Source: a virus (lineage: Duplodnaviria; Caudoviricetes). From it: a DNA stretch of 64,000 bases. Location: IMG/VR virus record IMGVR_UViG_3300033066_002431, positions 1-64,000 of that record; one strand, 5' to 3'. The notes under the pieces are model-generated. The model saw only the letters and a list, made by a program, of their open reading frames with translations, made no database searches and was not told where the DNA came from. Below are positions 2,928-53,475 of the stretch, piece after piece. The translations under genes were made by a program, and so were the position numbers. Positions within the stretch are counted from its first letter, which is position 1. Every line of letters begins with the position of its first letter.

Positions 2928-2961
2928 TGGACGCGCCCCGGCTCGTAACTACCTCCGGGGC
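2928..2961 (+). promoter_or_regulatory. Class-A leaderless promoter
   Basis: TGGACG-N16-TACCTC-N6-ATG. Confidence 0.6.
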
Positions 2962-3630
2962 ATGATGAACATCGAATTGGTGGGCCAGGACTGGTGGGTT
3001 CGCATTGCCGGGACGGCCATCGTGAAGCTAGACGCGAAGCCAGATGTGCCCGCGTGGGTGGTCAAGGCCGCGGCGGAGAAGGTCCTCCGCGAATTGGTGG
3101 TCAACGCCACGATCAACGGCGGCATCGTGACCGAAGAGGGGGACCGTCAGCCGCCCAAGCCCGCCTCCACGCTGAAGACGCTTCATGACGCGCTGCTTGC
3201 GAAAGCGCTGTCCTTCCTGCCGCCGCACTTGGTGCTGCCCTTTCCCGGCGAGAGCGAGCGCCAGGACGCGGCGGCCCTCCGCATCTACGAGATGCTGGCG
3301 CGGAACCCGCTCCCCGTGGAGACGCCCCCGACCGGCCTCGACGCCGTGACGGCTGCGCTCACCGCAGCCGGCTTCGTGGACATCTGCGTGGAGCGCGATG
3401 GTAGCCACTACAGGCTTACCGCCACGGGGAAGCTGCCCGAGCCTTCTGTCCGCCGGGAGACCAGCGCGGACCTCTTCCGGAGCTTCGCGGCGGCCAACGG
3501 GTTCCAGGCGGCGATGGGGCTGGACCCTGCGACGGCCCCGCTCGGCCTCATCGCGACGTGGATCGCCGATGGGCGGTTTTACCCTGCGTTCACCGAGTGG
3601 TGCTCCTCGCAGGCTCCGGCCCGCGGATAG
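2962..3630 (+). CDS. Hypothetical protein
   Basis: ATG 34 nt downstream of class-A promoter -35 (TGGACG at 2928); protein-like composition. Confidence 0.75.
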   Translation: MMNIELVGQDWWVRIAGTAIVKLDAKPDVPAWVVKAAAEKVLRELVVNATINGGIVTEEGDRQPPKPASTLKTLHDALLAKALSFLPPHLVLPFPGESERQDAAALRIYEMLARNPLPVETPPTGLDAVTAALTAAGFVDICVERDGSHYRLTATGKLPEPSVRRETSADLFRSFAAANGFQAAMGLDPATAPLGLIATWIADGRFYPAFTEWCSSQAPARG

Positions 3631-9326: not shown

Positions 9327-9527
9327 ATGCTCGATCCGCACCTCACCGACGAGATCCTGAAGCTCCGCATGAAGGCGACGAACGAGGGAGAGCCCCTCTG
9401 TCGTGACCTCGACTGCAAGCTCGCGGGCGGCTGGGCCCACGTCGGCCCCTGCGAGCCGTGCGGCTGCGGGCTCGGGCACGCCATCGCCGAATGTCCGGCC
9501 CCCACTGCCCCGAAGGAGACCCCGTGA
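9327..9527 (+). CDS. Small Cys/His-rich hypothetical protein
   Basis: ATG 6 nt after TACCGT; CRDLDC...HVGPCEPCGC..H...C. Confidence 0.65.
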   Translation: MLDPHLTDEILKLRMKATNEGEPLCRDLDCKLAGGWAHVGPCEPCGCGLGHAIAECPAPTAPKETP

Positions 9528-12047: not shown

Positions 12048-12078
12048 ACCGGCTCCCCGCCGTGTCTATCGTCGGGAC
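12045..12078 (+). promoter_or_regulatory. Class-A leaderless promoter
   Basis: TAGACC-N16-TATCGT-N6-ATG. Confidence 0.7.
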
Positions 12079-18518: not shown

Positions 18519-18982
18519 TGAGCCGGCCCGTCTCCCTCTTCACGAACGCGATCTCCGCCGTCCGCACCAAGACGAACGGCGGGAGCGCGGTCGCAGCCGA
18601 CTCGGCCACGCTCTCCGATGCGAACTTCCCGTTGCTCGCTGACGCGACGACGGGCGGCACCATCGACTGCCGAGGCCTCTCCTCGCTGTGGGTGAGCGTC
18701 GAGTTCACCGGGGGGACAGGCCCGACGATCGACCTCGATCCGCTCATCCGTGACGAGGATGCTGCGGACGGCGCGCGGTGGAAGCGGCTCATGCCGGGGA
18801 CGACTCCTGCGCTCTACCAGCCCACGCTCGACGGCACTGGATTCGTCGAGATCCGCTGTGACGGCGGCAAGGTGTTCCCGCGTATCAAGGCGGTCACCGG
18901 CTCCCCGACTGGCATCGTGATCCTCGCTCGCCCCGGCGCTGCCCTCAACACGGGCAAGGGCTTCACGTCCGGAACCACCTGA
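18518..18982 (+). CDS. Hypothetical (probably virion) protein
   Basis: TGATG coupling to the genes on both sides. Confidence 0.7.
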   Translation: MSRPVSLFTNAISAVRTKTNGGSAVAADSATLSDANFPLLADATTGGTIDCRGLSSLWVSVEFTGGTGPTIDLDPLIRDEDAADGARWKRLMPGTTPALYQPTLDGTGFVEIRCDGGKVFPRIKAVTGSPTGIVILARPGAALNTGKGFTSGTT

Positions 18983-20610
18983 TGGCTCGCACCCCGAAGA
19001 CGTCCACGCGCTCTGCGTCCGCATCCAAGGCGCAGAGCCGCGCGTCGAAGCCTTCGGGGCTCACCAAGGGCCCGGCCGAGAACGCGGGTGTCGACCGCAG
19101 GCCGCTCGCACAGCAGTACCTCTACACCGGCCCGCAGAACCCGGCCGGCGTCTCGTCGATCATTCGCCTCGCCGATACCGGCTACATGTGGCGCCTGTGC
19201 GACCTCTTCGAGAAGTACCGGAACGAGGATAGCCACCTTCAGACGGTGGCCTCGCGCAGGGAGCGCGCTCTTGCGGACGTCCCCTGGCAGATCATCCCCG
19301 CCTCCGAGAAGCGTCGCGACCTCAAGATCGCCGCGTGGCTCGAAGACGCCTTCAAGGCGATGGGGGACAAGAAAATCGGCGACGTCTCCACGCGAGGCTT
19401 GACCGACGCGATCACGCACCTCAACAGCGGCGTGATCTACGGCTACGGGATCGGCGAAGTCCCGTGGACGAAGGACGGGATCTACGTCAAGCCGGCGGGC
19501 TTTCTCCCCATGGGGGCGCGCCGCTTCGTCTACTCGCAGTTCGATGCCTCGCTCCGCTGGTACGACATGAACGGGGCGCTCACTGCCTACCCCGGCGTCG
19601 ACCCCGTGAACGACTACCCGGAAGGGCGCTTCCTGGTTCACCGGCCCCGCATCAACGGCGCCATCGGGCCGCGCGAGGGTCTCATCCGCTGCCTGACGTG
19701 GGCCGCGATGTTCCGCCTGTGGACGGTCAAGGATTGGCACCGTGCGGGCGAGTTCTCGTGGAAGCCCTACCGGATCGGCTACTACAAGAAAGACGGCACG
19801 GTCGATGAGGACCGCACTGCCGTGGAAGAGGCCCTCCAATACCTCTCCACGAACGGCTTTGCGGCGCTCCCCGATACCGTCGAGATCGACATCCAGTTCG
19901 CCAAGAACCGCACGGCCGGCGATGGCGGCGTTCATGGTGGACTGGCCGCCTTCCTGGCGGGGGAGATGAGCAAGGTCACGCTCGGCGCGACGCTCTCCGT
20001 CGAGCAGGGCCGGGTCGGCTCCAACGCCCTCGGCAACGTCCACAGGGACGTCGCGATGACGGTGCGGGACGCGGATGCCCGCGCGCTCGAAGACACCATC
20101 CAGCGCCAGCTCATCGCGCCGCTGGTCCGCTACAACTTCGGCGACGTCCCCATCCCGTCCTTCCGCTTCACCACGGAAGAGGGCGCGGACCTCGCCGCCC
20201 TCGCGAGCGCGCTTCAGAAGCTCGGACCGAGCCAGCAAGGAATGGGGCTCCACATCCCCGCGCGATGGGTCCGCACCACCTTCGGGATTCCCGAGCCCGA
20301 GATCGGCGACGAGTTGATGGACGGCTCCGTGCGCCGCGACCCTGCCGAGGTGGCCGCCGAAGCCGCGCAGGCGAAGAAGGACATGGCCGCGCAGATGGCG
20401 GGGAAGGGCCCCCAGACGACGCCGGAAGCTCCCCAGCAAGGCGAGCCAGCCGGCAAGAAGACTCCCGCGGACGAGCCGGGCAACGACAACGGGCCTCCCG
20501 TGTCGGAGAAGGCCATCGAGCGCGCTTACCGCGCCTACGTGACGGACCGTGTTCTGACCATGGCTGGCTTCCGCAAGCGCAACTACGGCGCCTTCGAGAG
20601 GGCTGCGTGA
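18982..20610 (+). CDS. Portal protein, DUF935 / Mu gp29-like
   Basis: DSHL...R, G.GI.EV.W, GPREGL.R.L.W, GSNALGNVH, QLIAPLVRYNFG and W....GIPEP motifs; position after TerL. Confidence 0.9.
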   Translation: MARTPKTSTRSASASKAQSRASKPSGLTKGPAENAGVDRRPLAQQYLYTGPQNPAGVSSIIRLADTGYMWRLCDLFEKYRNEDSHLQTVASRRERALADVPWQIIPASEKRRDLKIAAWLEDAFKAMGDKKIGDVSTRGLTDAITHLNSGVIYGYGIGEVPWTKDGIYVKPAGFLPMGARRFVYSQFDASLRWYDMNGALTAYPGVDPVNDYPEGRFLVHRPRINGAIGPREGLIRCLTWAAMFRLWTVKDWHRAGEFSWKPYRIGYYKKDGTVDEDRTAVEEALQYLSTNGFAALPDTVEIDIQFAKNRTAGDGGVHGGLAAFLAGEMSKVTLGATLSVEQGRVGSNALGNVHRDVAMTVRDADARALEDTIQRQLIAPLVRYNFGDVPIPSFRFTTEEGADLAALASALQKLGPSQQGMGLHIPARWVRTTFGIPEPEIGDELMDGSVRRDPAEVAAEAAQAKKDMAAQMAGKGPQTTPEAPQQGEPAGKKTPADEPGNDNGPPVSEKAIERAYRAYVTDRVLTMAGFRKRNYGAFERAA

Positions 20611-21164
20611 AGGGCCTCCGACACCGCGACGGGCAGCCAGAGAGCACCCTGGAGCGCCACGGCCTCACCTTCGGTGTGGACCGTCACGACGGCACCGTGA
20701 TGGACGGCACCGGTCCCGACGGCACCCCGTACCACGTCGTGCAGAAGGGCGATTACGGCTACGTGCGCGGCTTCATCGGCGAGGCCGACAGCGCGCCTCC
20801 CAACGGCGACGATGGCGAGGGTTGGGACGCGTATCTCGGCCCCCACGTCGCGAGCGAGCGCGTCTACGTGGTGACCCAGCGCAACGCGCTGAACGGCCAC
20901 TACGACGAGCAGAAGGGCATGTTCGGCTTCACCGACGCGGCCGCTGCCGAAGAGCACTACCGCGCGCACACGCACCCCGCGATGTTCGGCCGGATCGGTG
21001 GGCTCGGGCTCGACGCCTTTCACGGCCAGCTTCGGGCGCATCGGGAGAGCGGCGCTCGCGTCTTCCGCGCGGAGACCGAAGAGGACGCCGCCGAGCTGGC
21101 CGATCTCGAGGCCATCGAAAAGGGCTTCACCGACGACGGCGACGACTCGCCGGATAGCGAGTGA
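20607..21164 (+). CDS. Inorganic-pyrophosphatase-fold (InPase) domain protein
   Basis: DGT...GDYGYVRG...DGEGWDAYLGP...VYVVTQ....GHYDEQKGMFGF...AA...Y matches the phage InPase domain pattern. Confidence 0.8.
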   Translation: MKGLRHRDGQPESTLERHGLTFGVDRHDGTVMDGTGPDGTPYHVVQKGDYGYVRGFIGEADSAPPNGDDGEGWDAYLGPHVASERVYVVTQRNALNGHYDEQKGMFGFTDAAAAEEHYRAHTHPAMFGRIGGLGLDAFHGQLRAHRESGARVFRAETEEDAAELADLEAIEKGFTDDGDDSPDSE

Positions 21165-21652
21165 CCATGTTCCGATCCCCCTGCCCCCGTCCCGAGTCGA
21201 TCCGCCTCGCCTTCTGTGAGGTGCTGAACGGGCTCGTCGCGAACGGGATGGCGCTCTACAACGCCGCCAACAAGGCGCACTGGAACACGCGCGGCCCGCT
21301 CTTCGAGGAGCTTCACAAGCTCTTCGGCGAGGTGGTGAGCGGCGCGGCCGACTGGAACGACACCATCGCCGAACGCGTGGCCCGCCTCGGTGGCGTCGCC
21401 GTGGCCCTCTCGGAAGAGACGGCGCTCCTCGTGACGCTCCCCGCGTTCCCCGTGGGAGAGACGGACGGGCTGAAGCTCTGCGTCGCGCTGGCAGCCTGCG
21501 TGGACGCCTACAACGTCGCCCTCTACGAGGCGATCGACCGCGCCGACACGATGGGTCTGTGGGTCGACGTGAACGACCTCTCCGCCATCGCGAGCGACGT
21601 GGAGAAGCTCGGGTGGAAGCTCGCTGCGACTCTGGAGAAGGCGAGCGCGTGA
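21161..21652 (+). CDS. dps: Dps-family ferritin-like protein
   Basis: AHWNTRGPLFEELHKLF...DTIAERVARLGG signature. Confidence 0.9.
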   Translation: MTMFRSPCPRPESIRLAFCEVLNGLVANGMALYNAANKAHWNTRGPLFEELHKLFGEVVSGAADWNDTIAERVARLGGVAVALSEETALLVTLPAFPVGETDGLKLCVALAACVDAYNVALYEAIDRADTMGLWVDVNDLSAIASDVEKLGWKLAATLEKASA

Positions 21653-23956: not shown

Positions 23957-25078
23957 ATGTTCCAGAGCAACGAAGCCATCATGCTCGAAGCGGCCAACTT
24001 CGAGTCCATCGCGCGCATGCAGCGCACCCAGCGGAGCATCGAGTTCGAGGCGTTCAAGAACGACTTCGCGCGCATGCTCCAGAGCAGCGACGAGAAGACC
24101 AAGGCGAAGGTCCGCGCGCTCAACGACTCCTACGTCCAGATGCGCGACGTGAGCGGCGCCGTCCACGTCGATGCGCTCATGAGCGAGTTCTCCGTGCGCT
24201 TCACGAACGAGGCCTACATCGGCTCGCTCCTGATGCCGGAGATCCAGGTCGACAAGCAGTCGAACTTCTACGGCGTGTGGAACCTGCGGGACCAGCTCGC
24301 GTATCCCGACGACACCATCGGGCCGCGCGGTGACGTGAAGCAGCTCGCCAGCAACGTCGACCTGACGAACAGCTACTTCGCCGGGGAGTACGGTCTCGAG
24401 GAGTACGTGGATCTCTCCACGATCGACAACGCGGACGCGCCGCTTCAGCCCCTCATGCACGCCACGTTCAAGGCGAACGACGGCATCCTGTGGAATCAGG
24501 AGCGCCGCATCATCGACGTGATGACGACGACGGGCAACTACGGCTCGAACTACCTGTCGATCCCGGTCGGCTCGGAGTGGAACAGCTCGGGCGGTGGCAA
24601 CCCCGTCCTGAACATCCAGAACGCGGTGGCGAGCGTGCTGCCCGGCCCTGGCCCGACGCGCAAGCTCGGGTTCTGCTCGTTCCCCGTCTACCAGGCGCTC
24701 GCGCGCCATCCTCAGATCCGCGACCTGCACAAGTACACGGCGGCGGGCCTCATGCCGCCGACGTACCTCGCGCAGATCTTCGATCTGGACGCTCTGCTCG
24801 TCGGCAAGGCCTGGAAGGACAGCGCGAACCCGGGACAGACGCTCTCGCTCAACCGCCTGTGGCCCAACGTCTTCGGCGTCGTAAACGTCATGACCGCGCC
24901 GATGAAGGACTCGTACTCGTTCGGCGCCACCTTCCGCTGGGGGCCGAAGTTCAGCGAGGTCCGGTTCGAGAGGAACCGCGGCCGCCGTGGCGGGTACGTC
25001 ACGAAGACGAGCGTCTCGTACGTGCCGAAGGTGACGGCGTCCTACGCCGGCTTCCTCCTCACGAACACCCTCGCGTGA
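23957..25078 (+). CDS. Major capsid protein (HK97 fold)
   Basis: 373 aa, strong SD, position; N..YIG..L.P...V.K.S, LARHPQI, G.AW motifs seen in lambda E/Mu-like capsids. Confidence 0.85.
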   Translation: MFQSNEAIMLEAANFESIARMQRTQRSIEFEAFKNDFARMLQSSDEKTKAKVRALNDSYVQMRDVSGAVHVDALMSEFSVRFTNEAYIGSLLMPEIQVDKQSNFYGVWNLRDQLAYPDDTIGPRGDVKQLASNVDLTNSYFAGEYGLEEYVDLSTIDNADAPLQPLMHATFKANDGILWNQERRIIDVMTTTGNYGSNYLSIPVGSEWNSSGGGNPVLNIQNAVASVLPGPGPTRKLGFCSFPVYQALARHPQIRDLHKYTAAGLMPPTYLAQIFDLDALLVGKAWKDSANPGQTLSLNRLWPNVFGVVNVMTAPMKDSYSFGATFRWGPKFSEVRFERNRGRRGGYVTKTSVSYVPKVTASYAGFLLTNTLA

Positions 25079-25113: not shown

Positions 25114-25770
25114 ATGGCCCCGCGCAAGAAGGCCGCTGACGAAGCGGCCAACCCCACCCCGGCCCCGGACGCTCCCGGGGCTCCCGCCCTGCCCGACAAC
25201 CCTCCCGAGGTCGCTTCGGCGATGCCCGCGGAGGGTGTCCCCGCCGACAGCGCTCCCGCGCTCGCCTCCGACGAAGCCGAGGAAGACGCCCACAAGGCCG
25301 CTCTCGAAGCTCTCGCCGCGGAAGACGACGTGGAGCCGGCCGCCGCTCCCGTGGAGCCCTCTGCGCCTCCCGAGGTGGTCTCGACCATCGACGCAGCGCC
25401 CGTCCTCACCGACGAGCAGATGGAGGTCATCCGTCTGAAGCGGGAGAAGGTCGCGCTCGAAGCCGAGGTCACCGCGCTCCAGGAACGGATCGGCGAGATC
25501 CGTGCTTCGGCGCAGACCGAGATCGAGTCGCTCCGGAGCCAGCTCGCGGGCATGTCCCACAAGCCGCCTCCCGCGCCCGTCTACGCGAAGGACCCGCTGC
25601 GGGAGGCGAAGAGCTTCGGCGTCCTCGCGACGTGGCTCGGTCCCGGCATCTACGGCGGACCGTACTACACGGTCGCTGGCGTGCGCATGCCGCAGGCGGT
25701 CGGCCTCACCACGGGCTACTTCCCGGCGGCGGACCTCCTCCGCTCGCCCGACGCCTTCAAGGCCACCTGA
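25114..25770 (+). CDS. Pro/Ala/Glu-rich protein with coiled coil
   Basis: GAGG SD; follows capsid gene; TGATG coupling downstream. Confidence 0.7.
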   Translation: MAPRKKAADEAANPTPAPDAPGAPALPDNPPEVASAMPAEGVPADSAPALASDEAEEDAHKAALEALAAEDDVEPAAAPVEPSAPPEVVSTIDAAPVLTDEQMEVIRLKREKVALEAEVTALQERIGEIRASAQTEIESLRSQLAGMSHKPPPAPVYAKDPLREAKSFGVLATWLGPGIYGGPYYTVAGVRMPQAVGLTTGYFPAADLLRSPDAFKAT

Positions 25771-26252
25771 TGCCCCGGCCGATCTATGCATCGCTCGATG
25801 ACCTGAAGGGGCGCGTGCGGATCGAGACGCTGCTGAACTGTCTCGACTTCACGCGCGCCAAGACGGTCACCGACGCGATCTTCCGCAGCGCGGTCGCAAA
25901 CCCGTCGTGCGCGGACATCGATCGGCAACTCGGGGGGGTGTTCCCGGGCCGTGTGCCGTTCGCGGACATCGACGCGGACCCGTCCACGCCAGAGGACATC
26001 AAAGAACTGGCGCTCGACTGGTACGTGTGGCGGCTCGCGAGCCTCTACCCGACCCACATGCAACTCGACGCCGTGATGCTGTGGACGAAGATCCAGAGCG
26101 ACCTCAAGAGGCTGCGCGAGGGGAGGGACGTCATCAACCAGAGCCCGCCCGACCCAGCGCGCAACACGGGCGGCACGGTGGGCGCGATCGGCGACGATCC
26201 GCCCTGCTCTCCGCCCCCCGCGTACTTCGACAACATGGGGGATTACGGCTGA
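25770..26252 (+). CDS. Head-tail adaptor, Mu gp36/DUF1320-like
   Basis: YASLDDLKGR start motif, P...KELALD...W.L, helical; position after capsid. Confidence 0.8.
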   Translation: MPRPIYASLDDLKGRVRIETLLNCLDFTRAKTVTDAIFRSAVANPSCADIDRQLGGVFPGRVPFADIDADPSTPEDIKELALDWYVWRLASLYPTHMQLDAVMLWTKIQSDLKRLREGRDVINQSPPDPARNTGGTVGAIGDDPPCSPPPAYFDNMGDYG

Positions 26253-26689
26253 TGACGAAGCCCTTCTCGCAGATCATCCCCGACGCGAACAGCTTCGACA
26301 TTGCGCTGGTGAAGGGCTTCCAGCGCGCCGTCACGCACACGATCACGGTCGTGACGATGGCGGCGCGAAACGAACACGACTGGCGCGACCGCACCCGAGC
26401 CACGCGCGAGGGGATGGAGCCTGTCATCGACGACGCGGCGAACGGCGCCACGGCTTCCCTGAAGCTCGAAGGCAACGCTGTCCGGCTCGCGGACGGCACC
26501 GAGCCGCACGTGATCACCGCTCGGAACGCCAAGGCGCTCCGCTTCTCGATGGGCGGAGACATGCTCTTTCGCCGGAGCGTGTATCACCCCGGCACGAAAC
26601 CGGACGCCTACCTCGACAACGCCGCCGAGAAGGCCGGTGAGGAGATCGCTGCGAGCGTGGAAGCGGCCATGGACGCGGTGTTCGGATGA
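26252..26689 (+). CDS. Neck/tail-completion protein (HK97 gp10 / virion morphogenesis-like)
   Basis: GTEPHVI.ARNAKALRF...V.HPGTKP..YL motif. Confidence 0.75.
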   Translation: MTKPFSQIIPDANSFDIALVKGFQRAVTHTITVVTMAARNEHDWRDRTRATREGMEPVIDDAANGATASLKLEGNAVRLADGTEPHVITARNAKALRFSMGGDMLFRRSVYHPGTKPDAYLDNAAEKAGEEIAASVEAAMDAVFG

Positions 26690-28392: not shown

Positions 28393-29946
28393 ATGTCCAA
28401 TCTCCCCATCGGGAACGTCGCCGAGCTTACGCCCGACGACAAGTTCCCCGGCATCTACCTCAAGAGCACCGTCGAAACCGGATCGAGCGACGGAATCCCC
28501 TACCTGCTTATCGTCGGCGCGGTCGCAGCGGACGCGAGCGGGGCGCTCACCCCCGACAGCGAGGTCGTGGACGTCCTCTCGGACGTGGACGCGCTCTACT
28601 ACGCGGGCGCCAACAGCGAGGGGTACCGCATGCTCCTTCGCGCGCTCGGCGTGGGCGGGGTCAAGGTCAAGTTCGCAGCCGCCGCCATCACGAGCGGCGT
28701 GCAGGCGGAGGCCACCATCACGGTGGACGTCACCGGCACGATCGCGGAGACGGGCTCGATCTTCTTCCGGCTCGGTGGTCGTCCGGTGGGCCCCCTCGGC
28801 ATCGGGCTCGCCGACACCCCGCAGACGATCGCGAACGCCATCGCGGCCTTCATCAACGCCGACCCGGCCATGTGCGCGGCGGCTGCGGTGACGGCGGGTT
28901 CCGGCACGACCTACGTGGTGACCCTCACGGCGGGATCGGACGGCGCGCGCGGCAACAGTCTGATCATCTGGAAGGACACGGCGCTCACCCCCTCGGCGGT
29001 CACGGCCGTGCTCGCGGGTGGGTCGGCGGTCACGTCGGGCGGCATCCCCTTCCACAATGGCGCCGGCACGGAGAGCGTGGCGACGCTCCTCACCGCGCTC
29101 CAGAACGACGAGTATTACACGGTCGCGTTCGCGCAGCGGGACAGCACCAACCTCGGGCGCTGGGAGACGGCCACGAACACGAAGCTCGGGCCGCTCGTCG
29201 GGCTCCTCGAGAACCTCGTGTGCGGCACGGGCGGCACCCTCTCGGCCGCGGGCTCGCTCGCGCAGACGACGCTCAACCACAGCAGCTTCGAGATGCTCTG
29301 GATGGAAGAGCCCGAGACGCCCCCCGAGGAGTTCGCCGCGCAGTGGGCTGCGATCCGCCACTCCACGGAGGTCGGCCCCAACCCGAACAACCGCTACGAC
29401 CTCGTGCGGCTCGACGGCATCCAGCCGCAGGAAGCGCGCAGCAAGCAGCCCAGCCGAGCGACGCAGGTCGCCGCGCTGAACTACGGGCTCACGCCGCTGG
29501 GGACGACCGACAACCGCGTCATCCTCGCTCGCGCGGTCACCACGCGTACGCAGACGGACACCGGCGGTCAGGACGACGGCACGGTGGACGTCGCGCAGTG
29601 GCGCACGGCCCTCGAGTTCCGCCGCGCCCTGAAGAACATGCTGACCGACCACATGACGGTTCACCCGTACATCGTGGACGACCCCGCCGAGGGGAACGAG
29701 CCCGACGTCCCGCAGGGCGTGACGTACCCGAAGAACATCGCCAACGCGACGTGGTCCCTCGAATACCAGAAGCAGAACGACAAGTGGCTCGCGCACGTGA
29801 AGCTCAACCCGCCGCGGTGCGCGCTGCACCCGACGTCGGCCACGCCGCGCCCGATCCTCTACGCCCCGATCGAGGTGCTGCCGCTCCTTCACCAGATCGC
29901 GGGGACCGTCGCGCTCCGGAAATTCCAGGTCGCCGCGACCAACTGA
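28393..29946 (+). CDS. Contractile tail sheath protein (Mu gpL-like)
   Basis: YAGANSE..RM, A.ATITV.., IANAIAAFINAD, G..GN, GLTPL.., R.VTT motifs; 517 aa. Confidence 0.9.
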   Translation: MSNLPIGNVAELTPDDKFPGIYLKSTVETGSSDGIPYLLIVGAVAADASGALTPDSEVVDVLSDVDALYYAGANSEGYRMLLRALGVGGVKVKFAAAAITSGVQAEATITVDVTGTIAETGSIFFRLGGRPVGPLGIGLADTPQTIANAIAAFINADPAMCAAAAVTAGSGTTYVVTLTAGSDGARGNSLIIWKDTALTPSAVTAVLAGGSAVTSGGIPFHNGAGTESVATLLTALQNDEYYTVAFAQRDSTNLGRWETATNTKLGPLVGLLENLVCGTGGTLSAAGSLAQTTLNHSSFEMLWMEEPETPPEEFAAQWAAIRHSTEVGPNPNNRYDLVRLDGIQPQEARSKQPSRATQVAALNYGLTPLGTTDNRVILARAVTTRTQTDTGGQDDGTVDVAQWRTALEFRRALKNMLTDHMTVHPYIVDDPAEGNEPDVPQGVTYPKNIANATWSLEYQKQNDKWLAHVKLNPPRCALHPTSATPRPILYAPIEVLPLLHQIAGTVALRKFQVAATN

Positions 29947-45916: not shown

Positions 45917-46149
45917 GGCGCGCGCTCGTCATTGCGGTGCTGCTGTTCTTCGCGCCGGTCTTCGTGGCCGCGTGCGCCACCGAGACGACCGACACGAACG
46001 GCGCTGGCGGCGGCGCTGCCGCGACGGACAAGTACACGAGCGCCTCGGCGTGCGTGGACGACTGCCAGGGCAGTGACCACCCGAACTGCGTCTCCATTTG
46101 CAACAGCACGGCGACGCTGTGCGCCGTCTCCAACCCAGGACTTCGATGA
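45913..46149 (+). CDS. Small Cys-rich lipoprotein
   Basis: RRALVIAVLLFFAPVFVAAC signal/lipobox, GAGGG linker, CxxxC pairs. Confidence 0.7.
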   Translation: MRRALVIAVLLFFAPVFVAACATETTDTNGAGGGAAATDKYTSASACVDDCQGSDHPNCVSICNSTATLCAVSNPGLR

Positions 46150-47129
46150 AACCCATTCTCCTCTTCCCCATCATGGGCGGACTGCTGATCGCTGCTTCAT
46201 GCGGCGGCACCTCGCCGGACTGCTTCTGTAACGGCGAGGTCGCTTCGGGCTGCGCGGAGGAATGCGCTTCCCACGACTCGCCCGAGCACGTCAGTGAAGC
46301 TGCAAGCGCACTGACCCTGTCGGCGTCGGCCTTCTACTCGATCGCCTACGCGGCCGGCTACGGGCCTTCGGACGGCTCGTACTGCAACAACCCAAGCATC
46401 AGCACGTGGTGCGAGTGCAACGTCGACTACACGGATGCGGCGGCACGTTGCAACGAACCGACGGCGACGGTGGTATGGGCGTTCCCCGCGCCTGCCTGCA
46501 CGGTCGCCAGCGCGTCGCTCACCTACCAGGCGATGGAAGGGGCTGCGGGGCGCACCGTCTCGATCCGGCGCATCCTCCGGCCCGTGGCGACCCCTCCGAT
46601 GGGGCTCGCGGGATCGTGCGTGACGGCGTCTGTGGCGTCGTGGTGGCGCTCCGGCCCCGAGGCGTGGACGGTCCCCGGTGCGAAGGGGGACGGCACCGAT
46701 CGCACCGCGACGGGCCCCTCCCGCACCCTCACGGCGACGTCGCTCCACACGGAGAGCTTCGACGTCACGGCCCTCGTGCAAGGGTGCCCGGCGTCGGGCG
46801 CGTGCGTGCTCGCGCAGTACGCTGACGCGCATGTGAGCGTGTACCCCGGTGCCGTGCTCGACATCGCGTGTGGCGCGGCGACGATCTGCGGGGACGGCAC
46901 CATCGAAGGCTCGGAGGCCTGCGACGACGGCAACACGGCCGGCGGCGACGGGTGTTCGGCCGCGTGCGCCGTGGAGACCGGCTGGACGTGCGCGGGCGCA
47001 CCGAGCGAGTGCCTCACCACGTGCGGCGATGGCATCGTGGCGGGCACCGAGGCCTGCGATGACGGCAACACCACAAGCCTGGACGGCTGCTCGGAGGCAT
47101 GCGCCCCCGAGGTCTGCGCCTGGCAGTAG
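46146..47129 (+). CDS. Lipoprotein with DNRLRE-like domain and two Myxococcus Cys-rich (DUF4215-type) repeats
   Basis: LIAASC lipobox; FDVTALVQG; CGDG.I...EACDDGN...GDGCS..C twice. Confidence 0.85.
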   Translation: MKPILLFPIMGGLLIAASCGGTSPDCFCNGEVASGCAEECASHDSPEHVSEAASALTLSASAFYSIAYAAGYGPSDGSYCNNPSISTWCECNVDYTDAAARCNEPTATVVWAFPAPACTVASASLTYQAMEGAAGRTVSIRRILRPVATPPMGLAGSCVTASVASWWRSGPEAWTVPGAKGDGTDRTATGPSRTLTATSLHTESFDVTALVQGCPASGACVLAQYADAHVSVYPGAVLDIACGAATICGDGTIEGSEACDDGNTAGGDGCSAACAVETGWTCAGAPSECLTTCGDGIVAGTEACDDGNTTSLDGCSEACAPEVCAWQ

Positions 47130-47196: not shown

Positions 47197-47598
47197 ATGA
47201 ACGACTCCCCTCCCATGACCATTCTTTCGGCTCGCGCCCTGTGCGTGACGGTGCTCCTCGCCATCTTCCTCTCGGGGTGCGGCGCACCGCTGGCGAATGC
47301 CACCATCGCCGTGAACGACACGCGGTCGTTCCTCACCGTCGCGCACGAGAGCATCGACGAGCGGTGTGTCCCCGCCTACCAGGCGGCCAAGACGCCCGAC
47401 GACATCGCGGCCGCGGACAAGGTCTGTCTGCCGGCGCGAACGGTTTACCTCACCACGCGCGCGGCCTGGATGTCGGCGGGCGCCGTCGTGCTGGCGGTGC
47501 GCTCGGGTGGTGACCCGAGATTGCTGGGCCCGGTGATGCTTCGAATGGCAGAAGGCGTCACGGCGCTCGTGAACGCCATCCACGAGGTGTCGAAGTGA
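47197..47598 (+). CDS. Helical lipoprotein
   Basis: GGAG SD; VLLAIFLSGC lipobox; amphipathic helices. Confidence 0.75.
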   Translation: MNDSPPMTILSARALCVTVLLAIFLSGCGAPLANATIAVNDTRSFLTVAHESIDERCVPAYQAAKTPDDIAAADKVCLPARTVYLTTRAAWMSAGAVVLAVRSGGDPRLLGPVMLRMAEGVTALVNAIHEVSK

Positions 47599-47780
47599 TC
47601 CCCGCGAACGCCGTGAAGGGCGTGATCGAGCTTCTGACCGTGCTCGATCCGCTGTTCGAGCTTGGCGGGAAGCTCATCGAAGAAGCGATGAAGCAGGCGC
47701 CCGAGCTGAACCAGGCGCCCGTGCCCGCTCTCGAGGAGATGGACGCCGCGCGGGCGGGCGCGCTGAAGCGCGTAGGCTAG
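47595..47780 (+). CDS. Small helical protein
   Basis: GTGA coupling with the lipoprotein gene. Confidence 0.6.
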   Translation: MIPANAVKGVIELLTVLDPLFELGGKLIEEAMKQAPELNQAPVPALEEMDAARAGALKRVG

Positions 47781-48112
47781 TCGTCGATCTGCGACTTGTA
47801 GAGCTCGCGAATGTCGTCCAGCGCCTTCGCCCACAACGCGTTGGAGTCGCACTGCATGTGCGTGGGCCACATGACGGACATCGTCCACATGTACCAGTCG
47901 AGCGCGATCTCTCGCAGCACGTGAGGCGGAGGCATGGCCCTCAGGCCTTTCATGCGGATCTCGAGAGCGATCATCGTCGGCTCCGCGACGGCCGACAAGA
48001 AAGCTGCCTCGTCGGGGACGCTGTCCCGATTCCAATCGAGGCACGACGTGATGGTCGTCATCGGCAGGCGACCTTTGAGGTCTTCGAACGAGGCATAGAG
48101 GTTGTTGGTCAT
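47777..48112 (-). CDS. Truncated paralogue of the gp36-like head-tail adaptor
   Basis: YASFEDLKGR, CLDW.R, SAVA.P, EIALDWYMW, PTHMQ.D...LW.K align with ORF 25770-26252. Confidence 0.85.
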   Translation of the reverse strand: MTNNLYASFEDLKGRLPMTTITSCLDWNRDSVPDEAAFLSAVAEPTMIALEIRMKGLRAMPPPHVLREIALDWYMWTMSVMWPTHMQCDSNALWAKALDDIRELYKSQIDD

Positions 48113-48146
48113 GCCGTTCACGTAGTCACGAACCACAGGAGATCCA
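48113..48146 (-). promoter_or_regulatory. Class-A leaderless promoter for the adaptor paralogue
   Basis: Minus strand TGGATC-N16-TACGTG-N6-ATG with CGTGACTA, same geometry as the left-arm promoters. Confidence 0.6.
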
Positions 48147-48340
48147 TGAGTCGCTTCATCACCTTCGCGCTGGCGCTCTTCTGCCTCTGCACGCCTTCCA
48201 ACCCGGAGCCGGCCTGCGCGCTCACCCCAACGTGCGTGCTCGACGCTCCCGGCCAGCCTCCCGCGCCGGCGGGCACCCCCTGTGGTGATGGCACCTGCGA
48301 TGGTGCCGGTCTCTGCTGTCCCGCCTCGAACCAGCCTTGA
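48146..48340 (+). CDS. Small secreted Cys-rich peptide
   Basis: AGGAG SD; hydrophobic signal; GTPCGDGTCDGAGLCC. Confidence 0.7.
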   Translation: MSRFITFALALFCLCTPSNPEPACALTPTCVLDAPGQPPAPAGTPCGDGTCDGAGLCCPASNQP

Positions 48341-48379: not shown

Positions 48380-48889
48380 CTACTCGCTCGTCCCGTTCAG
48401 CGCCCGCACGAGGTCACCGATCGTCCACGGGCCAGCCTTCAGAAGCTCCGTGGCACGCTCGACGATCTCCTTGTTGAGGTCGTCGTCCGCGTCGAACGTG
48501 ATGGTGACATGCTCGTCGTCCTTGTCGATGGACCGTGGCTCGCTCGCGTTCATCTCGCTCCGCAGCGCCTCGAAGCACGCCTTGGCGGCATCCTCGCCCC
48601 CTTGCTCGGCGCCACGGTAGCGCGCCTCGAGACTCCGCATCGCGTCCACGAACGGGACTGAATGGTCCCGGATCGCCCGGTAGCAGCCGATCAGTCGTGG
48701 GTTCGCGTCGGCCATCACAACGCGGCGCCCCTCCTTCAGCCAGTGGATCGCGAGCGCGCCGGCCCCCGTGAAGACGTCGAATGCGCGCCCCCTCGGCGAT
48801 GGTGATGGGATCCGTTCGGAGTAGAGGACGGGGAGCCAGCGCTTCGAGCCGGGCCACCGTCCGAGCGAGTCGACGTCAGCGGGCAGCAC
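48380..48889 (-). pseudogene. dam: Dam-family (D12 class) adenine methyltransferase, N-terminal half only
   Basis: RWPGSKRWL, DVFTGAGAL, ADANPRLIGCY, LRSEMN motifs; no DPPY motif seen in the downstream frames; ends in unrelated sequence. Confidence 0.75.
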
Positions 48890-49629: not shown

Positions 49630-52600
49630 TCACCCGTCGGTGAGGCGGTTGTAGAGCGCGCGGCCAAGGTCGGTCTCGAAGGCGGCCGACTCGCCGACGC
49701 CGGCCACCTCGAAGGCGGCGCTCGCGTCGATCCCGTCCGTTGCTTCGGCGACGACGCGCTTCTTCTGCAAGAGGTCGTTCGCGTCGGCCTGGATGGTGCC
49801 GCCGTAGACGAAGATCAGGAAGTCCACCTCTTCCGTCTGGCCGATGCGGACGAAGCGGCCGCGGAACTGCCGGAGCAATGTCGGATCGTTGTTCGGATCA
49901 TCGTAGATGCAGACCGTCGAGAAGTGCCCCACCAAGACGTTGAGGCCCTCGGGCAGGGCGGCCGGGTTGCACACGAGGATCCGCGCGCCGTTCTCCTTGG
50001 CGTCGATCACCCATTCACGGCGGTTCTTGGCCGACACCTTCTTCGCGTCGAGATGCGCGATGGTGACGCCGGTCGCCTTCAGGATGCGCGCGAGCCGCTG
50101 TCCGAGCGCCGTGCGCACCGTCGCGACCACCACGTTGCGACCGCGCTCCAGAGCGGCACGGACCTCGCGCACGAGAGCCTCTTCCTTGGGGAGGAGCACC
50201 TTCGGGTCCATGCCGGGCTCGACGTGCAGCACGTGCGACTCACCGGCCATGTCCGTGTCTTCGGGGTAGGCGATCGTCCAGTCTCCGCCTGCGGTGTTGC
50301 CGAGGTCCGCCGTCGCGTGGTCGTAGTACCGGGGGAGGTGTCCGAGCGCCCCGAAGAGCTTGCCCGCTCGCCCTGCCTTGAAGCGGTCTTTCCCGATCGC
50401 CTCGCAGATTTTCCGCTGCATGAGGTCGGCGGCCTTCTTCATGGGCTCGCTCGGCGCGCACGACACGAGGCGCTCGTGAACGGGCGGGAGCGCGATCTCA
50501 AGGTCCGCGAGCTGCACGACCACGGAGATCGGCAGCAAGAAGCGCATGACCGCGGTGGGGAGCACGCCAGGGGCCGCGCCAGTCGTGCGCTCGCGGGTCG
50601 TCACGCGGTCGCTGTGCGTCCCGAAGACGACGCGCTTCTTGTTCTCGTCGACTTGCTCGACAACCTGCACGAGGAAGCCGTAGCGCCGCTCGAACTCGCC
50701 AACGTCGCCGTGCTCGAACTCCTGACGGAAGCGGCTCGACAAGTGCCAGAGCAGCACGAAGAGCGTGCGCGCGTAGCCGTTCATCACCGATCCGGTGAGG
50801 GCGATTACGGGGATTTTGCGGCGCGATCGAAGGCTCAAGAGCCTTGATGCCGCGCGGCTTTGTGCGCTGTCGCCGTTCTGGAACTTATGGAATTCGTCGA
50901 TGATCATGAAGTCGAACAGGTGGGGTGCTCGCTTCAGGATGTACTTCGCAAGGGACACGCGCCGTGGGTTTGGGACCGCCTGGTAGAGCAACTCTCCGCA
51001 CGTCTCTTCCTCCCACGCAGCGACCGTGGCGAGCCGCTCGATCGCGAACTTCAGGGCGTCGTCCGAGCCGCGCTTCCTGCCATCCAAGAGAGGCTCGTCG
51101 CCGTCGCAGCCGAAGCCGCGGAGGTCGTACGGGAAGGGGTCGCCGTTCTTCCACTCGGCTTTCCACTTCCCATCTCGGCGGAGCTTGTTCGCGGTGAGGA
51201 TCTCGCTCCCGTTGAACAGCCGGTGAGGCTTGTTCCAGGCGTCGTGCCCCTCGTAGCGGCGCATCTCGCCGAGCGTGGACGCGATGAGGGGCGACGACGG
51301 CGGCAGCAAGAGCAGCGTCTTTGCGGCGACGTCACGCACGCCCGCATCGTCACCGCCCCCGTAGCCGGCGCTCCGGCTTTCGAGCGTCGAACGGAAGAGC
51401 CGCATCGCCTCGCGCACGATCAAGGCGTCATCGCCGAGCGCGTGCAGCACGTTCCAGTATGCGAGCCGGAGGGTGGTCCCGCGCTCGTCGTACTTCGTGG
51501 TCTTCTCCACAAGACGCCGGAGAGGCTTCACGATGCCCCGCACCACGCCTGCAAGGTCGCGCCAGTCGGCGTCCTCCCGTCGCCACGCGCGCCGGAGGAT
51601 GCGACCGCCCACGCGCCGGCATGCGTCTCGAAGCTGCGCGTCGTCGAGCTTGCCGCCGAGCACCGTCAGGCGAGCCAAGATGCGCGCCGGCCCGTTCGCG
51701 GGGGTCGTGATCGTGGTGCCGCACGACAGCCGTTGCTCGGCGAGCTTCTCGCGGCTCTCCGCCTGGAGAGCACCGCACGCCCCGCACCGTGCGACGCCCT
51801 CCCACGCATGGCCGAGCTTCGCGGGCTCCTTCGAGAGCACGGCGATCTCCATGCCCTCCGCGCGCATCTCGGCGAAGGCGTCGATGTCGTTCACGCTCTC
51901 CAGGAACGTCACGCGCGCGTCCGGGAGCACCTTCGCCACCTCGCTCTTCCACTCGGGCAAAAGCGACGTCGGACAGAGCACGAGGACCTTCCCGACGCCC
52001 CCGAGGTAGTAGTACGCGGCGAGCAAGCTCATCCGGGTCTTGCCGACACCGATCTGTCCGAGCAACACGGCCGCCCGGTCCGGTTCCTCGAGTAGCCGTA
52101 GAAGCGCGCGAACACCGTCCTCCTGTCCGCCGAGGAGCGGATCCGGCGACACGGGGAAGAGCAGCCGATCCTTGTCCTCCTCGCGCGTCGGGTCGTAGAG
52201 AAGCTCGCACCGCGCGCGAAGGGCATCGAGCATGCTGCCGCTGTAGCGCGCGAGGAGATCGCCCACGGACCACTGCGCGGGATCCTCGTGACCGGACGGC
52301 TCCACGCTGGACACAAGCCGGTGATACCGACCCCGCGAGAGGTCCAAGATCGACAGTTGAAGCTCGGGATGGTGTTGCCGCTCTTCCGCGACGCGCTCCC
52401 CCTTCGCTTCCTTCCACCGGAGGTGCCGGAACGTGCGCCGGTGAACGCCCTTCAGGAGAAGCTCCGGTCCGCGCTGGCCCGCGTCGGGGGTGAGGCGCGC
52501 CCCAGAGAGGATGCCCGCACCGGCGGCCATGGCGATGTGCGCCGGCCGTGGTGGGCACGCCAGACGCAGCCGCGGGGCCATGATCTCCGTGTACGGGTCT

Positions 52601-53475
52601 TCGGGCTCCACGTTCGCGACGGCTTGCCGCTGCCCGGCGCGATCGGTGATCGTCCACGGCTGGTAGGCGGCGAGGATGGAGAGCAAGTCGACCTCACCCA
52701 TCTTCCACGAAGGGGCCGCGGTCTCCGTCACCTTCACGGTGAGGTGTGCCCGGTGAAGGCCCTTCACGGGAAGCTCCGGGATGCTGGCGGCGTCCGCGCT
52801 CCACGCGCGCACCTGAGCAGCGATCGACGGCTCCGGCGTCGCCAAGGTCATCCGGCGCCGGCCGACGAGCACGACCTGCTTGAAGGCCTCGAAGTGGGGC
52901 GCGGGGACACGCCAGCACGCCACGTCCTCGAAGTGCCGTGCGATGGTGTCCGCGCTGTCGGCGAGCGTGTAGAACGGCACGAAGTGAAGGATCGCGCCCC
53001 CCACCGTCACGAGCGGGGCGAAGCGGCGAAGCCAGCGCTCTTCGAGCCGGCGGTACTGGCGATCGAAGTCGTACGGGCAGTTGTGCCAGAGGATGTGGAC
53101 GCCCTCGTTCGGGCTGTTGGCCAAGAGGAACGAGTCGCCGTGCGCGATCTCGTGCGAGAAGCCCGAGAACTGCCCGCTGTAGAGCGCGTTCCGAAGGCTG
53201 TGCCCGCGGGTCTCTTCCATCTCGCAGGCGAACACCTTCGCGTGCTGGCCCCATTGGGCTTCGCGACTGTCCTTCGGGCCGGAGAGCATGCCGGCCATCT
53301 GGATCCACTCGCGAGCGAGACCGACGACGGCATCGCCGGTGCCCGCGCACGGGTCCGCTACGAAGAGCTTCTCGCCGGCCTTCATGCTCACGCGCACGGT
53401 GGACGCGAGCGCGCGGTAAAGCTCGGGTGGTGCGGGGTAGAAGCCCCCCAGTGCAGTGCTCTCCGGTCTCGCCAT
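49630..53475 (-). CDS. DUF6094-like methyltransferase fused to SNF2-family helicase
   Basis: GFYPAP, DPCAGTGDA, HNCPY (NPPY-like); helicase motifs GVGKT, CPTSL..EW, IIDEFH, LTGS, EGLN, Q..GR..RIGQ. Confidence 0.85.
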   Translation of the reverse strand: MARPESTALGGFYPAPPELYRALASTVRVSMKAGEKLFVADPCAGTGDAVVGLAREWIQMAGMLSGPKDSREAQWGQHAKVFACEMEETRGHSLRNALYSGQFSGFSHEIAHGDSFLLANSPNEGVHILWHNCPYDFDRQYRRLEERWLRRFAPLVTVGGAILHFVPFYTLADSADTIARHFEDVACWRVPAPHFEAFKQVVLVGRRRMTLATPEPSIAAQVRAWSADAASIPELPVKGLHRAHLTVKVTETAAPSWKMGEVDLLSILAAYQPWTITDRAGQRQAVANVEPEDPYTEIMAPRLRLACPPRPAHIAMAAGAGILSGARLTPDAGQRGPELLLKGVHRRTFRHLRWKEAKGERVAEERQHHPELQLSILDLSRGRYHRLVSSVEPSGHEDPAQWSVGDLLARYSGSMLDALRARCELLYDPTREEDKDRLLFPVSPDPLLGGQEDGVRALLRLLEEPDRAAVLLGQIGVGKTRMSLLAAYYYLGGVGKVLVLCPTSLLPEWKSEVAKVLPDARVTFLESVNDIDAFAEMRAEGMEIAVLSKEPAKLGHAWEGVARCGACGALQAESREKLAEQRLSCGTTITTPANGPARILARLTVLGGKLDDAQLRDACRRVGGRILRRAWRREDADWRDLAGVVRGIVKPLRRLVEKTTKYDERGTTLRLAYWNVLHALGDDALIVREAMRLFRSTLESRSAGYGGGDDAGVRDVAAKTLLLLPPSSPLIASTLGEMRRYEGHDAWNKPHRLFNGSEILTANKLRRDGKWKAEWKNGDPFPYDLRGFGCDGDEPLLDGRKRGSDDALKFAIERLATVAAWEEETCGELLYQAVPNPRRVSLAKYILKRAPHLFDFMIIDEFHKFQNGDSAQSRAASRLLSLRSRRKIPVIALTGSVMNGYARTLFVLLWHLSSRFRQEFEHGDVGEFERRYGFLVQVVEQVDENKKRVVFGTHSDRVTTRERTTGAAPGVLPTAVMRFLLPISVVVQLADLEIALPPVHERLVSCAPSEPMKKAADLMQRKICEAIGKDRFKAGRAGKLFGALGHLPRYYDHATADLGNTAGGDWTIAYPEDTDMAGESHVLHVEPGMDPKVLLPKEEALVREVRAALERGRNVVVATVRTALGQRLARILKATGVTIAHLDAKKVSAKNRREWVIDAKENGARILVCNPAALPEGLNVLVGHFSTVCIYDDPNNDPTLLRQFRGRFVRIGQTEEVDFLIFVYGGTIQADANDLLQKKRVVAEATDGIDASAAFEVAGVGESAAFETDLGRALYNRLTDG

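What the first reader, a model, noticed from the sequence alone, without database searches (positions are those of the whole stretch)
47777..48146. Antisense, truncated duplicate of the head-tail adaptor with its own non-late promoter: candidate assembly inhibitor or decoy
Seen: the 111-aa minus-strand ORF aligns along its length with the gp36-like adaptor at 25770-26252. Matching blocks are YAS(L/F)(D/E)DLKGR, CLD(F/W).R, SAVA.P, E(L/I)ALDWY(V/M)W and PTHMQ.D...LW.K, and the DNA is still similar (ctcgactggtac(g/a)tgtgg). The copy lacks about 17 internal residues and the entire ~40-aa C-terminal arm. It lies 22 kb away, antisense to the structural operon, behind a promoter (TGGATC-N16-TACGTG-N6-ATG, CGTGACTA) matching the left-arm class-A promoters. 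Known: in SPP1 gp15 and HK97 gp6 adaptors the C-terminal segment docks on the portal. Inference: the copy could co-assemble into adaptor rings but fail to bind the portal. That would make it a dominant-negative inhibitor of competing phages, a timer for head-tail joining, or a decoy for defence systems that sense structural proteins.
Basis: partly seen in the sequence, partly recalled or inferred. Interest (0 to 1): 0.82.

Follow-up and report, generated by a model that had tools for sequence, protein, structure and literature searches.

The report
Portal-arm-less copy of phage head-tail adaptor
A Mu-like prophage of a high-GC, probably myxobacterial, host carries a second, selectively maintained copy of its head-to-tail adaptor that keeps the folded helical core but lacks the arm that anchors the adaptor to the portal; it may interfere with or regulate virion joining, which is untested.

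Summary
ORF 47777-48112(-), 111 aa, is a true homologue of the Mu gp36-type adaptor at 25770-26252(+): BLASTP E 4e-26, 36% identity.

- **Fold.** Its AF2 model (pLDDT 91.5) superposes on the solved adaptors Mu gp36 and JBD30 gp41 at Z about 10. The match ends where their portal-binding C-arm begins.
- **What is missing.** The two segments that are low-confidence in the resident adaptor's model (loop 59-70, tail 120-160) are absent or shortened.
- **Not decaying.** GC3 is 0.88. An intact 56-57% identical copy with the same neighbours exists in metagenome contigs. Two of the samples also hold a 79% identical canonical adaptor. dN/dS is 0.42 (bootstrap 0.21-0.70).
- **Not recent.** It falls outside the well-supported clade of resident-type adaptors.
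- **Promoter motif.** The upstream TGGATC-N16-TACGTG-N6-ATG belongs to a six-member motif family in the window, against 0.11 expected.
- **Rare.** It is absent from a related provirus, and none of 193 deposited gp36-bearing phages shows a second copy.

Function is inferred only. The most likely role is an adaptor mimic that engages adaptor partners without docking on the portal. Complex prediction and read data were unavailable.

Another first-stage note covers this same stretch. The scan holds no match on other DNA.

The parts
47777..48112 (-). Arm-less adaptor paralogue, 111 aa: five-helix core of the Mu gp36 / DUF1320 fold, without the C-terminal portal arm
   Evidence: AF2 pLDDT 91.5. VIA-align Z 10.6 to 5YDN, 10.2 to 8RKA_B, 10.0 to 9KNU_M. 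Model residues 4-109 align to chain residues 1-107.
48113..48146 (-). Promoter-like element TGGATC-N16-TACGTG-N6 directly before the ATG (leaderless-type layout). Its -35-like hexamer overlaps the start codon of the divergent gene.
   Evidence: Member of a six-site motif family. The same string is kept in L003.
25770..26252 (+). Resident head-tail adaptor, 160 aa: helical core plus a 41-aa Pro/Gly-rich tail with an aromatic end
   Evidence: Z 11.3 to Mu gp36 5YDN. pLDDT is below 50 for residues 59-70 and 120-160.
26249..26689 (+). 146-aa gene in the position of Mu gp37, the tail terminator and likely docking partner of the adaptor core
   Evidence: Assigned by position only. No family hit in Pfam. 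One weak hit to an unnamed family in PHROGs (E 0.0018).
18982..20610 (+). Mu-type portal protein, whose clip would receive the adaptor arm
   Evidence: Pfam Portal_Mu, E 2.6e-64.
47595..47780 (+). 61-aa ORF, last gene of the plus-strand block. It is convergent with the paralogue and the two stop codons overlap (CTAG). The pair is conserved in L003.
   Evidence: GC3 0.89, dN/dS 0.34.
47197..47598 (+). Lipoprotein (lipobox LSGC), part of the same conserved accessory module
   Evidence: 72% identical in L003, dN/dS 0.26.
48146..48340 (+). 64-aa secreted Cys-rich protein, divergent from the paralogue with 33 bp between the two start codons
   Evidence: GGAG lies 5 nt before its ATG. Conserved in L003, dN/dS 0.38.
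2944..2964 (+). Class-A motif site before ORF 2962-3630. Further sites at 3669-3689, 4639-4659, 9309-9329 and 12061-12081.

Best explanation
SHOWN. The ORF is a real gene under purifying selection. It encodes only the helical bundle of a Mu gp36-type head-tail adaptor. It lacks the C-terminal arm, which in Mu, JBD30 and SPP1 wedges between portal clip domains. It also lacks most of a loop that is low-confidence in the model of the resident adaptor. It is an old or horizontally acquired paralogue, not a fresh duplicate. It lies in a variable accessory module at the junction of the late genes and the minus-strand block. It carries the same promoter-like element as five left-arm (non-structural) genes.

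INFERRED. It is made separately from the late structural proteins and is not a normal virion adaptor, because it cannot anchor on the portal. The core is the part that, in solved necks, makes the large lateral adaptor-adaptor interface and rests on the next ring (terminator or stopper). The most likely action is therefore as an adaptor mimic. It would either take a place beside portal-bound adaptor subunits or cap the tail terminator. Either way it would block or delay head-tail joining. The likely targets are related superinfecting or co-resident phages, or the phage's own particles until late proteins outnumber it.
For: Homology: (E 4e-26). Fold. The seven best rows are all phage adaptors (Z 5.7-10.6), while unrelated rows score 4.5 or less. 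The alignment stops at residue about 107 of Mu gp36 and JBD30 gp41, where the C-arm starts. The best match is 5YDN, the crystal of arm-less gp36 residues 1-109. Resident adaptor model: the same five helices, plus low-confidence 59-70 and 120-160. Role of the arm and the core: PMC11915804, PMC11445458 and PMC9701221 (the lateral interface is 1250 A2 against 700 A2 to the portal). Selection: dN/dS 0.42 with bootstrap 0.21-0.70. The paralogue keeps all seven positions that are nearly invariant across the family. Conservation with synteny in L003-L005. The canonical adaptor P0003 occurs in two of the same samples. Separate regulation: motif family, 6 against 0.11 expected, with the upstream 40 nt nearly identical in L003. 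Precedent for prophage proteins that block virion assembly, with an antidote in the late operon: Tab (PMC10884400) and Tai (PMC11364771).
Against: There is no expression data and no interaction data. Adaptors of this type are monomers that oligomerise only after docking on the portal (PMC9701221), so an arm-less core might never be recruited. The paralogue has diverged 2.7-fold faster at non-synonymous sites than the resident adaptor between the same two phage lineages (dN 0.39 against 0.14), so the interface residues need not match. No defence-family hit. A related provirus does without it. If the motif drives early lytic rather than lysogenic expression, exclusion of incoming phages is less likely than self-regulation.
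Confidence: 0.4

Rival explanations
1. The helical bundle has been exapted for a job unrelated to virion assembly. It would work with its conserved neighbours, for example as one half of a two-gene unit with the convergent 61-aa ORF, or as part of the secreted and lipoprotein accessory module.
For: The four-gene module is conserved as a block and all four genes are under purifying selection. Two more arm-less homologues lie outside head modules. P0004 sits behind a 241-aa coiled-coil protein next to divergent regulators, and P0010 is fused to a 130-aa N-terminal extension near a host peptidase gene. The paralogue evolves faster than the resident adaptor.
Against: The blocks most conserved between the paralogue and true adaptors are the family's own signature positions, which fits retained adaptor-type contacts. 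No family or defence hit for any neighbour.
Confidence: 0.25
2. It is a structural or assembly-assisting protein of this phage's own particle: a minor neck subunit in mixed rings, or a transient cap or chaperone for tails or heads.
For: It keeps the adaptor core fold. In JBD30 the core itself rests on the next ring.
Against: It has no portal arm. It lies outside the late operon on the other strand with a non-late motif. It is absent from relative G001, which has an otherwise collinear structural module. None of 193 deposited gp36-bearing phages has a second copy.
Confidence: 0.12
3. It is a relic: a fragment of an adaptor gene brought in by illegitimate recombination in a mosaic hot spot. It would have no function and simply not be lost yet.
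For: The region is clearly mosaic. The adjacent Dam-type methyltransferase is cut to 169 aa against 338 aa in G001, G001 has another lipoprotein in this slot, and L003 has an extra inserted ORF.
Against: dN/dS is 0.42 with an upper bootstrap bound of 0.70. It has an intact frame, start and stop in two lineages that differ at 44% of residues. The truncation falls exactly at the domain boundary. The upstream element is conserved. The AF2 model is confident.
Confidence: 0.12
4. It is a decoy that soaks up a host defence sensor which recognises the adaptor. It would be made before the late proteins.
For: There is only the early-type motif, plus the general fact that many defence systems sense structural proteins (discussion of PMC10884400).
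Against: No known sensor of adaptors was found here. There are no defence or anti-defence hits. The faster divergence from the resident adaptor would weaken any mimicry.
Confidence: 0.08

Closest known systems
Bacteriophage Mu gp36 (gene J) adaptor. PDB 5YDN is the crystal of residues 1-109; 9KHX and 9KNU show it in the virion.
   Same: The helical bundle is the same: Z 10.6, rmsd 3.0 A, 102 residues aligned for the paralogue, and Z 11.3 for the resident adaptor. The paralogue is almost the natural equivalent of the arm-less crystallisation construct.
   Different: Mu gp36 has a C-arm of about 32 residues that forms a four-stranded sheet with two portal clip domains (PMC11915804). The paralogue has none. 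Sequence similarity to Mu gp36 is marginal: Pfam E 0.01 for the resident copy only, and hhalign E 5e-4. The gene is outside the head module.
Pseudomonas phage JBD30 gp41 (DUF1320 adaptor, PDB 8RKA chain B)
   Same: The core is the same: Z 10.2 for the paralogue and 10.6 for the resident adaptor. The resident family ends in an aromatic motif that resembles JBD30's Trp hook on the portal stem. This resemblance is by eye.
   Different: The paralogue lacks the whole extended C-terminus and the hook.
SPP1 gp15 / HK97 gp6 / YqbG adaptors
   Same: The general adaptor fold is shared: YqbG Z 5.7 for the paralogue, and HK97 gp6 Z 7.2 for the resident copy. The principle is the same: the C-terminus anchors in the portal clip, flexible parts order on assembly, and lateral contacts dominate.
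   Different: These are more distant in fold score and are always single-copy genes in the head-completion module.
Prophage-encoded virion-assembly blockers: Tab/anti-Tab of JBD26 and Tai/Ati of PICIs and phi80
   Same: The idea is shared: a small protein made from a temperate element outside the late operon blocks virion assembly, and a late-operon antidote spares the element itself. Here the 61-aa late-block ORF, convergent with the paralogue, is a candidate antidote by position only.
   Different: Tab and Tai act on tail assembly (Tab is linked to the tape measure protein). I saw no statement that either is a copy of a structural protein. No homology was tested here, and no phenotype is known for this gene.

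Membership tests
Mu gp36 / DUF1320 (PF07030) head-tail adaptor | Helical-bundle fold superposable on solved gp36-type adaptors | tested here: met
   Paralogue model (pLDDT 91.5): Z 10.6 to 5YDN, 10.2 to 8RKA_B, 10.0 to 9KNU_M, 8.8 to 9KHX_A. The next unrelated row scores 4.5. Foldseek's top four rows are the same four entries, TM 0.55-0.61, but with weak E-values of 0.07-1.6.
Mu gp36 / DUF1320 (PF07030) head-tail adaptor | Detectable sequence homology to the family | tested here: inconclusive
   The paralogue has no Pfam hit. The resident copy scores 16.4 bits, E 0.01, below the 24.7-bit cut-off. hhalign of the family profile against Mu gp36 gives E 5e-4 with probability 31%. The nearest Atlas clusters carry PF07030, score 0.93. 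Homology of the paralogue to the resident adaptor is secure (E 4e-26).
Mu gp36 / DUF1320 (PF07030) head-tail adaptor | Extended C-terminal arm that inserts between portal clip domains | tested here: not met
   The paralogue ends at the last core helix (residue 111), whereas the resident adaptor and ten other full-length relatives carry a 40-70-residue tail. Structural alignments stop at target residue about 107 of 137-140.
Mu gp36 / DUF1320 (PF07030) head-tail adaptor | Gene lies in the head-completion module, between the major head gene and the terminator and sheath genes | tested here: not met
   The resident copy meets this feature. The paralogue lies 21.5 kb away on the other strand, among secreted and lipoprotein genes.
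Mu gp36 / DUF1320 (PF07030) head-tail adaptor | Forms a dodecameric ring on the portal in the virion | not testable with these tools
Virion proteomics or cryo-EM would be needed.
Prophage assembly blockers with antidote (Tab/anti-Tab, Tai/Ati) | Blocks virion assembly of other phages while expressed from the prophage | not testable with these tools
Prophage assembly blockers with antidote (Tab/anti-Tab, Tai/Ati) | Linked counter-defence gene expressed with the late genes | tested here: inconclusive
   A 61-aa ORF ends the plus-strand block, overlaps the paralogue's stop codon, and is conserved with it in L003. There is no evidence that the two proteins interact.
Prophage assembly blockers with antidote (Tab/anti-Tab, Tai/Ati) | Sequence homology to Tab or Tai proteins | not tested
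PADLOC-DB of 2023 gave no hit, but I do not know whether it holds Tab or Tai, which were described in 2024.

The most novel reading that the evidence does not exclude
A temperate phage has turned a copy of its own neck adaptor into a weapon or brake. The arm-less core would poison adaptor rings or cap the tails of related phages, and the convergent 61-aa late-operon protein would neutralise it during the phage's own lytic growth. That would be a Tab/Tai-like defence and counter-defence pair built from a structural-protein paralogue.
Probability: 0.15. Interest if true: 0.8.

Novelty: new variant of a known kind. Interest (0 to 1): 0.5.

Why it matters
Neck adaptors are single-copy genes in the deposited gp36-bearing phages: 193 of 193 records hold one copy. 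A conserved, separately controlled copy reduced to the part that contacts other neck proteins, and unable to dock on the portal, is a natural 'separation-of-function' allele.

If it interferes with joining, that would be a case of a structural-protein mimic used for phage-phage competition or for timing of assembly. It would extend the recently found class of assembly-blocking prophage proteins from tails to the head-tail junction.

It is also a simple reagent idea: arm-less adaptor cores could serve as specific inhibitors of head-tail joining in laboratory phage-host pairs.

If it has no such role, it is still a clean example of domain-precise exaptation of a virion protein.

Tried and rejected

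- Complex prediction (resident adaptor core plus paralogue) was unreachable.

**Searches for relatives and families**
- tblastn of both proteins against 50,697 phage records: no match.
- Word-index protein search: only the protein itself and P0002. P0004 is a singleton.
- Exhaustive HMM search: 13 hits in 1.84 billion representatives.
- Two scans of species genomes found nothing. Viral contigs gave only G001. Metagenome contigs gave only canonical adaptors.
- PHROGs and PADLOC gave nothing for the paralogue or its neighbours.
- A PDB sequence-profile search found no adaptor.

**Signals and side ideas**
- The sigma-70 and terminator consensus scan found nothing in 47-49 kb.
- The conserved hairpin after the small secreted gene is not more stable than shuffles (z -0.5).
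- My first motif, CGTGASTACGTGA, did not recur.
- The idea that the extra L003 ORF and the L011 68-aa ORF are ribbon-helix-helix regulators rests on appearance only. Pfam gave no hit for the first and E 0.15 for the second.
- The tree cannot say whether the four arm-less forms share one origin.
- The Mu gp36 crystal paper (PubMed 29767456) is not held.

Full report
**What the window is**

The window is the first 64 kb of a 76.6-kb IMG/VR provirus record with 68% G+C. It encodes:
- a Mu-type portal at 18982-20610 (Pfam Portal_Mu, E 2.6e-64);
- a major head protein at 23957-25078 and a tail sheath at 28393-29946 (PHROGs);
- a DUF4215 Cys-rich-repeat protein at 46098-47129, a repeat that another first-stage note links to myxobacterial surface proteins.

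It is therefore a Mu-like myovirus-type prophage of a high-GC, probably myxobacterial, host.

**Observation**

The ORF at 47777-48112(-) has an ATG start and is 111 aa long. It aligns with the 160-aa product of 25770-26252(+) at E 4e-26 and 36% identity.

The copy stops 41 residues short of the resident protein's end.

An internal gap of 10-14 residues lies between the first two long helices. The same loop is short in Mu gp36 itself, so part of the difference is an insertion in the resident lineage.

Third-codon-position G+C is 0.88, like the bona fide genes here. The overlapping frames have 0.64-0.65.

**What the two proteins are**

The resident gene sits where Mu has gene 36 (J): after the major head gene and one further gene, and before a terminator-sized gene and the sheath.
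- Pfam gives only a sub-threshold Phage_Mu_Gp36 hit (E 0.01).
- Profile-profile comparison with Mu gp36 gives E 5e-4.
- Its AF2 model matches Mu gp36 (5YDN Z 11.3, 9KNU 10.8, 9KHX 10.7) and JBD30 gp41 (8RKA_B, 10.6). The next 13 rows are adaptors of other phages, including HK97 gp6, YqbG, Sf6 gp7 and P22 gp4.

The paralogue's model is confident (pLDDT 91.5, five helices).
- It gives the same top hits: 5YDN Z 10.6, 8RKA_B 10.2, 9KNU_M 10.0, 9KHX_A 8.8, P74-26 neck 8.6, P1 connector 6.3, YqbG 5.7.
- Unrelated chains score 4.5 or less.
- Foldseek ranks the same four entries first, though with weak E-values.
- In all these alignments the paralogue covers target residues 1 to about 107, and the targets' remaining 30 or so residues have no counterpart.
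- The best match, 5YDN, is the crystal of Mu gp36 residues 1-109, that is, the protein without its arm.

**What is missing and why it matters**

- *Mu.* gp36 is a 12-mer of a helical domain plus an elongated C-arm. The arm inserts into the portal clip and forms a four-stranded sheet with two portal subunits. Mu has no stopper, so the adaptor docks the tail terminator gp37 directly (PMC11915804).
- *JBD30.* The extended C-terminus wedges between two clip domains and ends in a hook whose Trp residues stack on portal aromatics. The helical bundles of two adaptors rest on loops of the next ring (PMC11445458).
- *SPP1.* gp15 is a monomer that first anchors by its C-terminus. Flexible parts then order, and the lateral gp15-gp15 interface (1250 A2) is much larger than the contact with the portal (700 A2) (PMC9701221).

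The full-length relatives found here (158-172 aa) share a Pro/Gly-rich tail that ends in an aromatic motif.

In the model of the resident adaptor, the two low-confidence stretches are 59-70 and 120-160. The tail is absent from the paralogue, and the loop is cut by about half.

The paralogue is thus the ordered core without the elements that would be expected to order on assembly.

**Is it a live gene?**

Only one close homologue exists in 5.8 billion clustered proteins. P0002 is 56-57% identical and lies on three short metagenome contigs.

Synteny is kept there. A Cys-rich protein, a lipoprotein and a 62-aa ORF run one way. The paralogue converges on them with overlapping stop codons, and a small secreted Cys-rich gene diverges from its start.

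dN/dS by the Nei-Gojobori method:

| Gene | dN/dS | Bootstrap or note |
|---|---|---|
| Paralogue | 0.42 | 0.21-0.70 |
| 61-aa ORF | 0.34 | |
| Lipoprotein | 0.26 | |
| Secreted peptide | 0.38 | |
| Resident adaptor | 0.30-0.33 | |
| Terminator-like gene | 0.24 | |
| Major head gene | 0.25 | |

A canonical adaptor 79% identical to the resident one (P0003) occurs on contigs from two of the same samples as P0002, SRR21621037 and SRR21621041. A related phage therefore very probably carries both genes, although they lie on separate contigs.

Between these two lineages the paralogue has changed 2.7 times more at non-synonymous sites than the adaptor (dN 0.39 against 0.14). Selection is purifying but looser, or partly diversifying.

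**Origin**

In a maximum-likelihood tree, the resident adaptor, P0003 and the adaptor of provirus G001 form a clade with 99/99 support. The two paralogues form their own clade outside it with 93/87 support.

The copy is therefore old or was imported from another Mu-like lineage. It is not a fresh duplicate.

**Distribution**

- G001 is a collinear relative whose adaptor keeps the same C-terminal motif. Its 62 kb hold no paralogue, and a different lipoprotein occupies the slot.
- The exhaustive profile search found 13 proteins in 1.84 billion. Two more of them are arm-less.
  - P0004 (113 aa) lies behind a 241-aa coiled-coil protein, next to divergent DNA-binding genes.
  - P0010 (243 aa) is the core behind a 130-aa N-terminal extension, near a host peptidase gene.
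  - Neither is in a head module.
- Of 193 deposited phages with a detectable gp36 homologue, none has two.

**Regulation**

The pattern CGTNNCTAY-N6-GRC-ATG has six matches in the window against 0.11 expected, and 0 of 100 shuffles reach six.

All six sites read T(G/A)GA(C/T)N-N16-TA(C/T)NNN-N6-ATG. Five lie before plus-strand ORFs of the left arm. That arm also holds an RNA ligase and a clamp-like gene. The sixth lies before the paralogue.

The ATG follows six bases after the -10-like hexamer, a layout expected of leaderless transcripts.

L003 keeps TGGATC-N16-TACGTG-N6-ATG exactly. It has a second partial copy, because an extra 78-aa ORF is inserted between the element and the paralogue.

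A generic sigma-70 scan finds nothing, and G001 lacks the motif. There are no expression data.

**Mechanism**

*Shown:* an arm-less adaptor core, under selection, with separate cis signals.

*Inferred:* it cannot be a normal portal-anchored adaptor. The surfaces it keeps are those that, in solved necks, touch neighbouring adaptor subunits and the next ring.

My preferred reading (0.4) is an adaptor mimic that blocks or delays head-tail joining, in competing relatives or in the phage's own cycle.

Tab and Tai show that temperate elements do block virion assembly and protect themselves with late-expressed antidotes. The 61-aa late-block ORF is a positional candidate for such an antidote, nothing more.

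Points against this reading:
- these adaptors oligomerise only after portal docking;
- the copy has diverged considerably from the resident adaptor;
- a motif shared with left-arm genes may mean early lytic expression rather than lysogenic expression.

The rival readings, with my odds, are:
- exaptation to an unrelated role with its neighbours (0.25);
- a minor structural or chaperone role (0.12);
- a relic (0.12);
- a decoy for a defence sensor (0.08).

**Verdict**

The function is open.

This is a new variant of a known protein kind, rare and computationally well defined, and worth a simple bench test.

Noticed in passing
2944-2964, 3669-3689, 4639-4659, 9309-9329, 12061-12081 (+) and 48110-48130 (-): A six-member family of promoter-like elements, T(G/A)GA(C/T)N-N16-TA(C/T)NNN-N6-ATG, with the start codon six bases after the -10-like hexamer (leaderless layout). 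There are 6 matches against 0.11 expected. The site at 12079 suggests that the 11989-13284 ORF really starts at 12079.
   Followed up: partly
48380-48889 (-), compared with L010:4615-5631: The D12-class (Dam-type) DNA methyltransferase is cut to 169 aa and keeps only the N-terminal part. The related provirus G001 has a 338-aa version. This marks the junction as a recombination hot spot.
   Followed up: partly
L003:476-757: In the metagenome relative, the 22-nt segment TCGTGAGTACGTGAGGGGGATG is duplicated and flanks an inserted 78-aa ORF upstream of the paralogue. The gene seems to have been inserted together with a copy of the initiation region. By eye the ORF looks like a ribbon-helix-helix protein, but Pfam does not support that.
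   Followed up: partly
L011:1595-1936 and L012:3272-4003: Two further arm-less gp36-like proteins lie outside head modules. P0004 (113 aa) is next to divergent regulators. P0010 (243 aa) carries a 130-aa N-terminal extension and lies near a host M16-type peptidase gene. Arm-less cores may be a small recurrent class.
   Followed up: partly
21161-21652 (+): A ferritin-like domain protein (Pfam Ferritin, E 7.7e-10) is encoded between the portal gene and the major head gene of the phage.
   Followed up: no
25114-25770 (+): The 218-aa Ala/Pro-rich coiled-coil gene between the major head and adaptor genes evolves much faster than its neighbours: dN/dS is 0.66 against 0.24-0.30.
   Followed up: no
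49630-53475 (-): A 1281-aa fusion of a DUF6094-type methyltransferase with an SNF2/helicase, with weak PADLOC hits to BrxH, DpdE and DrmD helicases. It lies in the minus-strand block upstream of the paralogue.
   Followed up: no
7843-8931 (+): An RNA ligase with a PHA02142-type OB-fold domain lies in the left arm.
   Followed up: no
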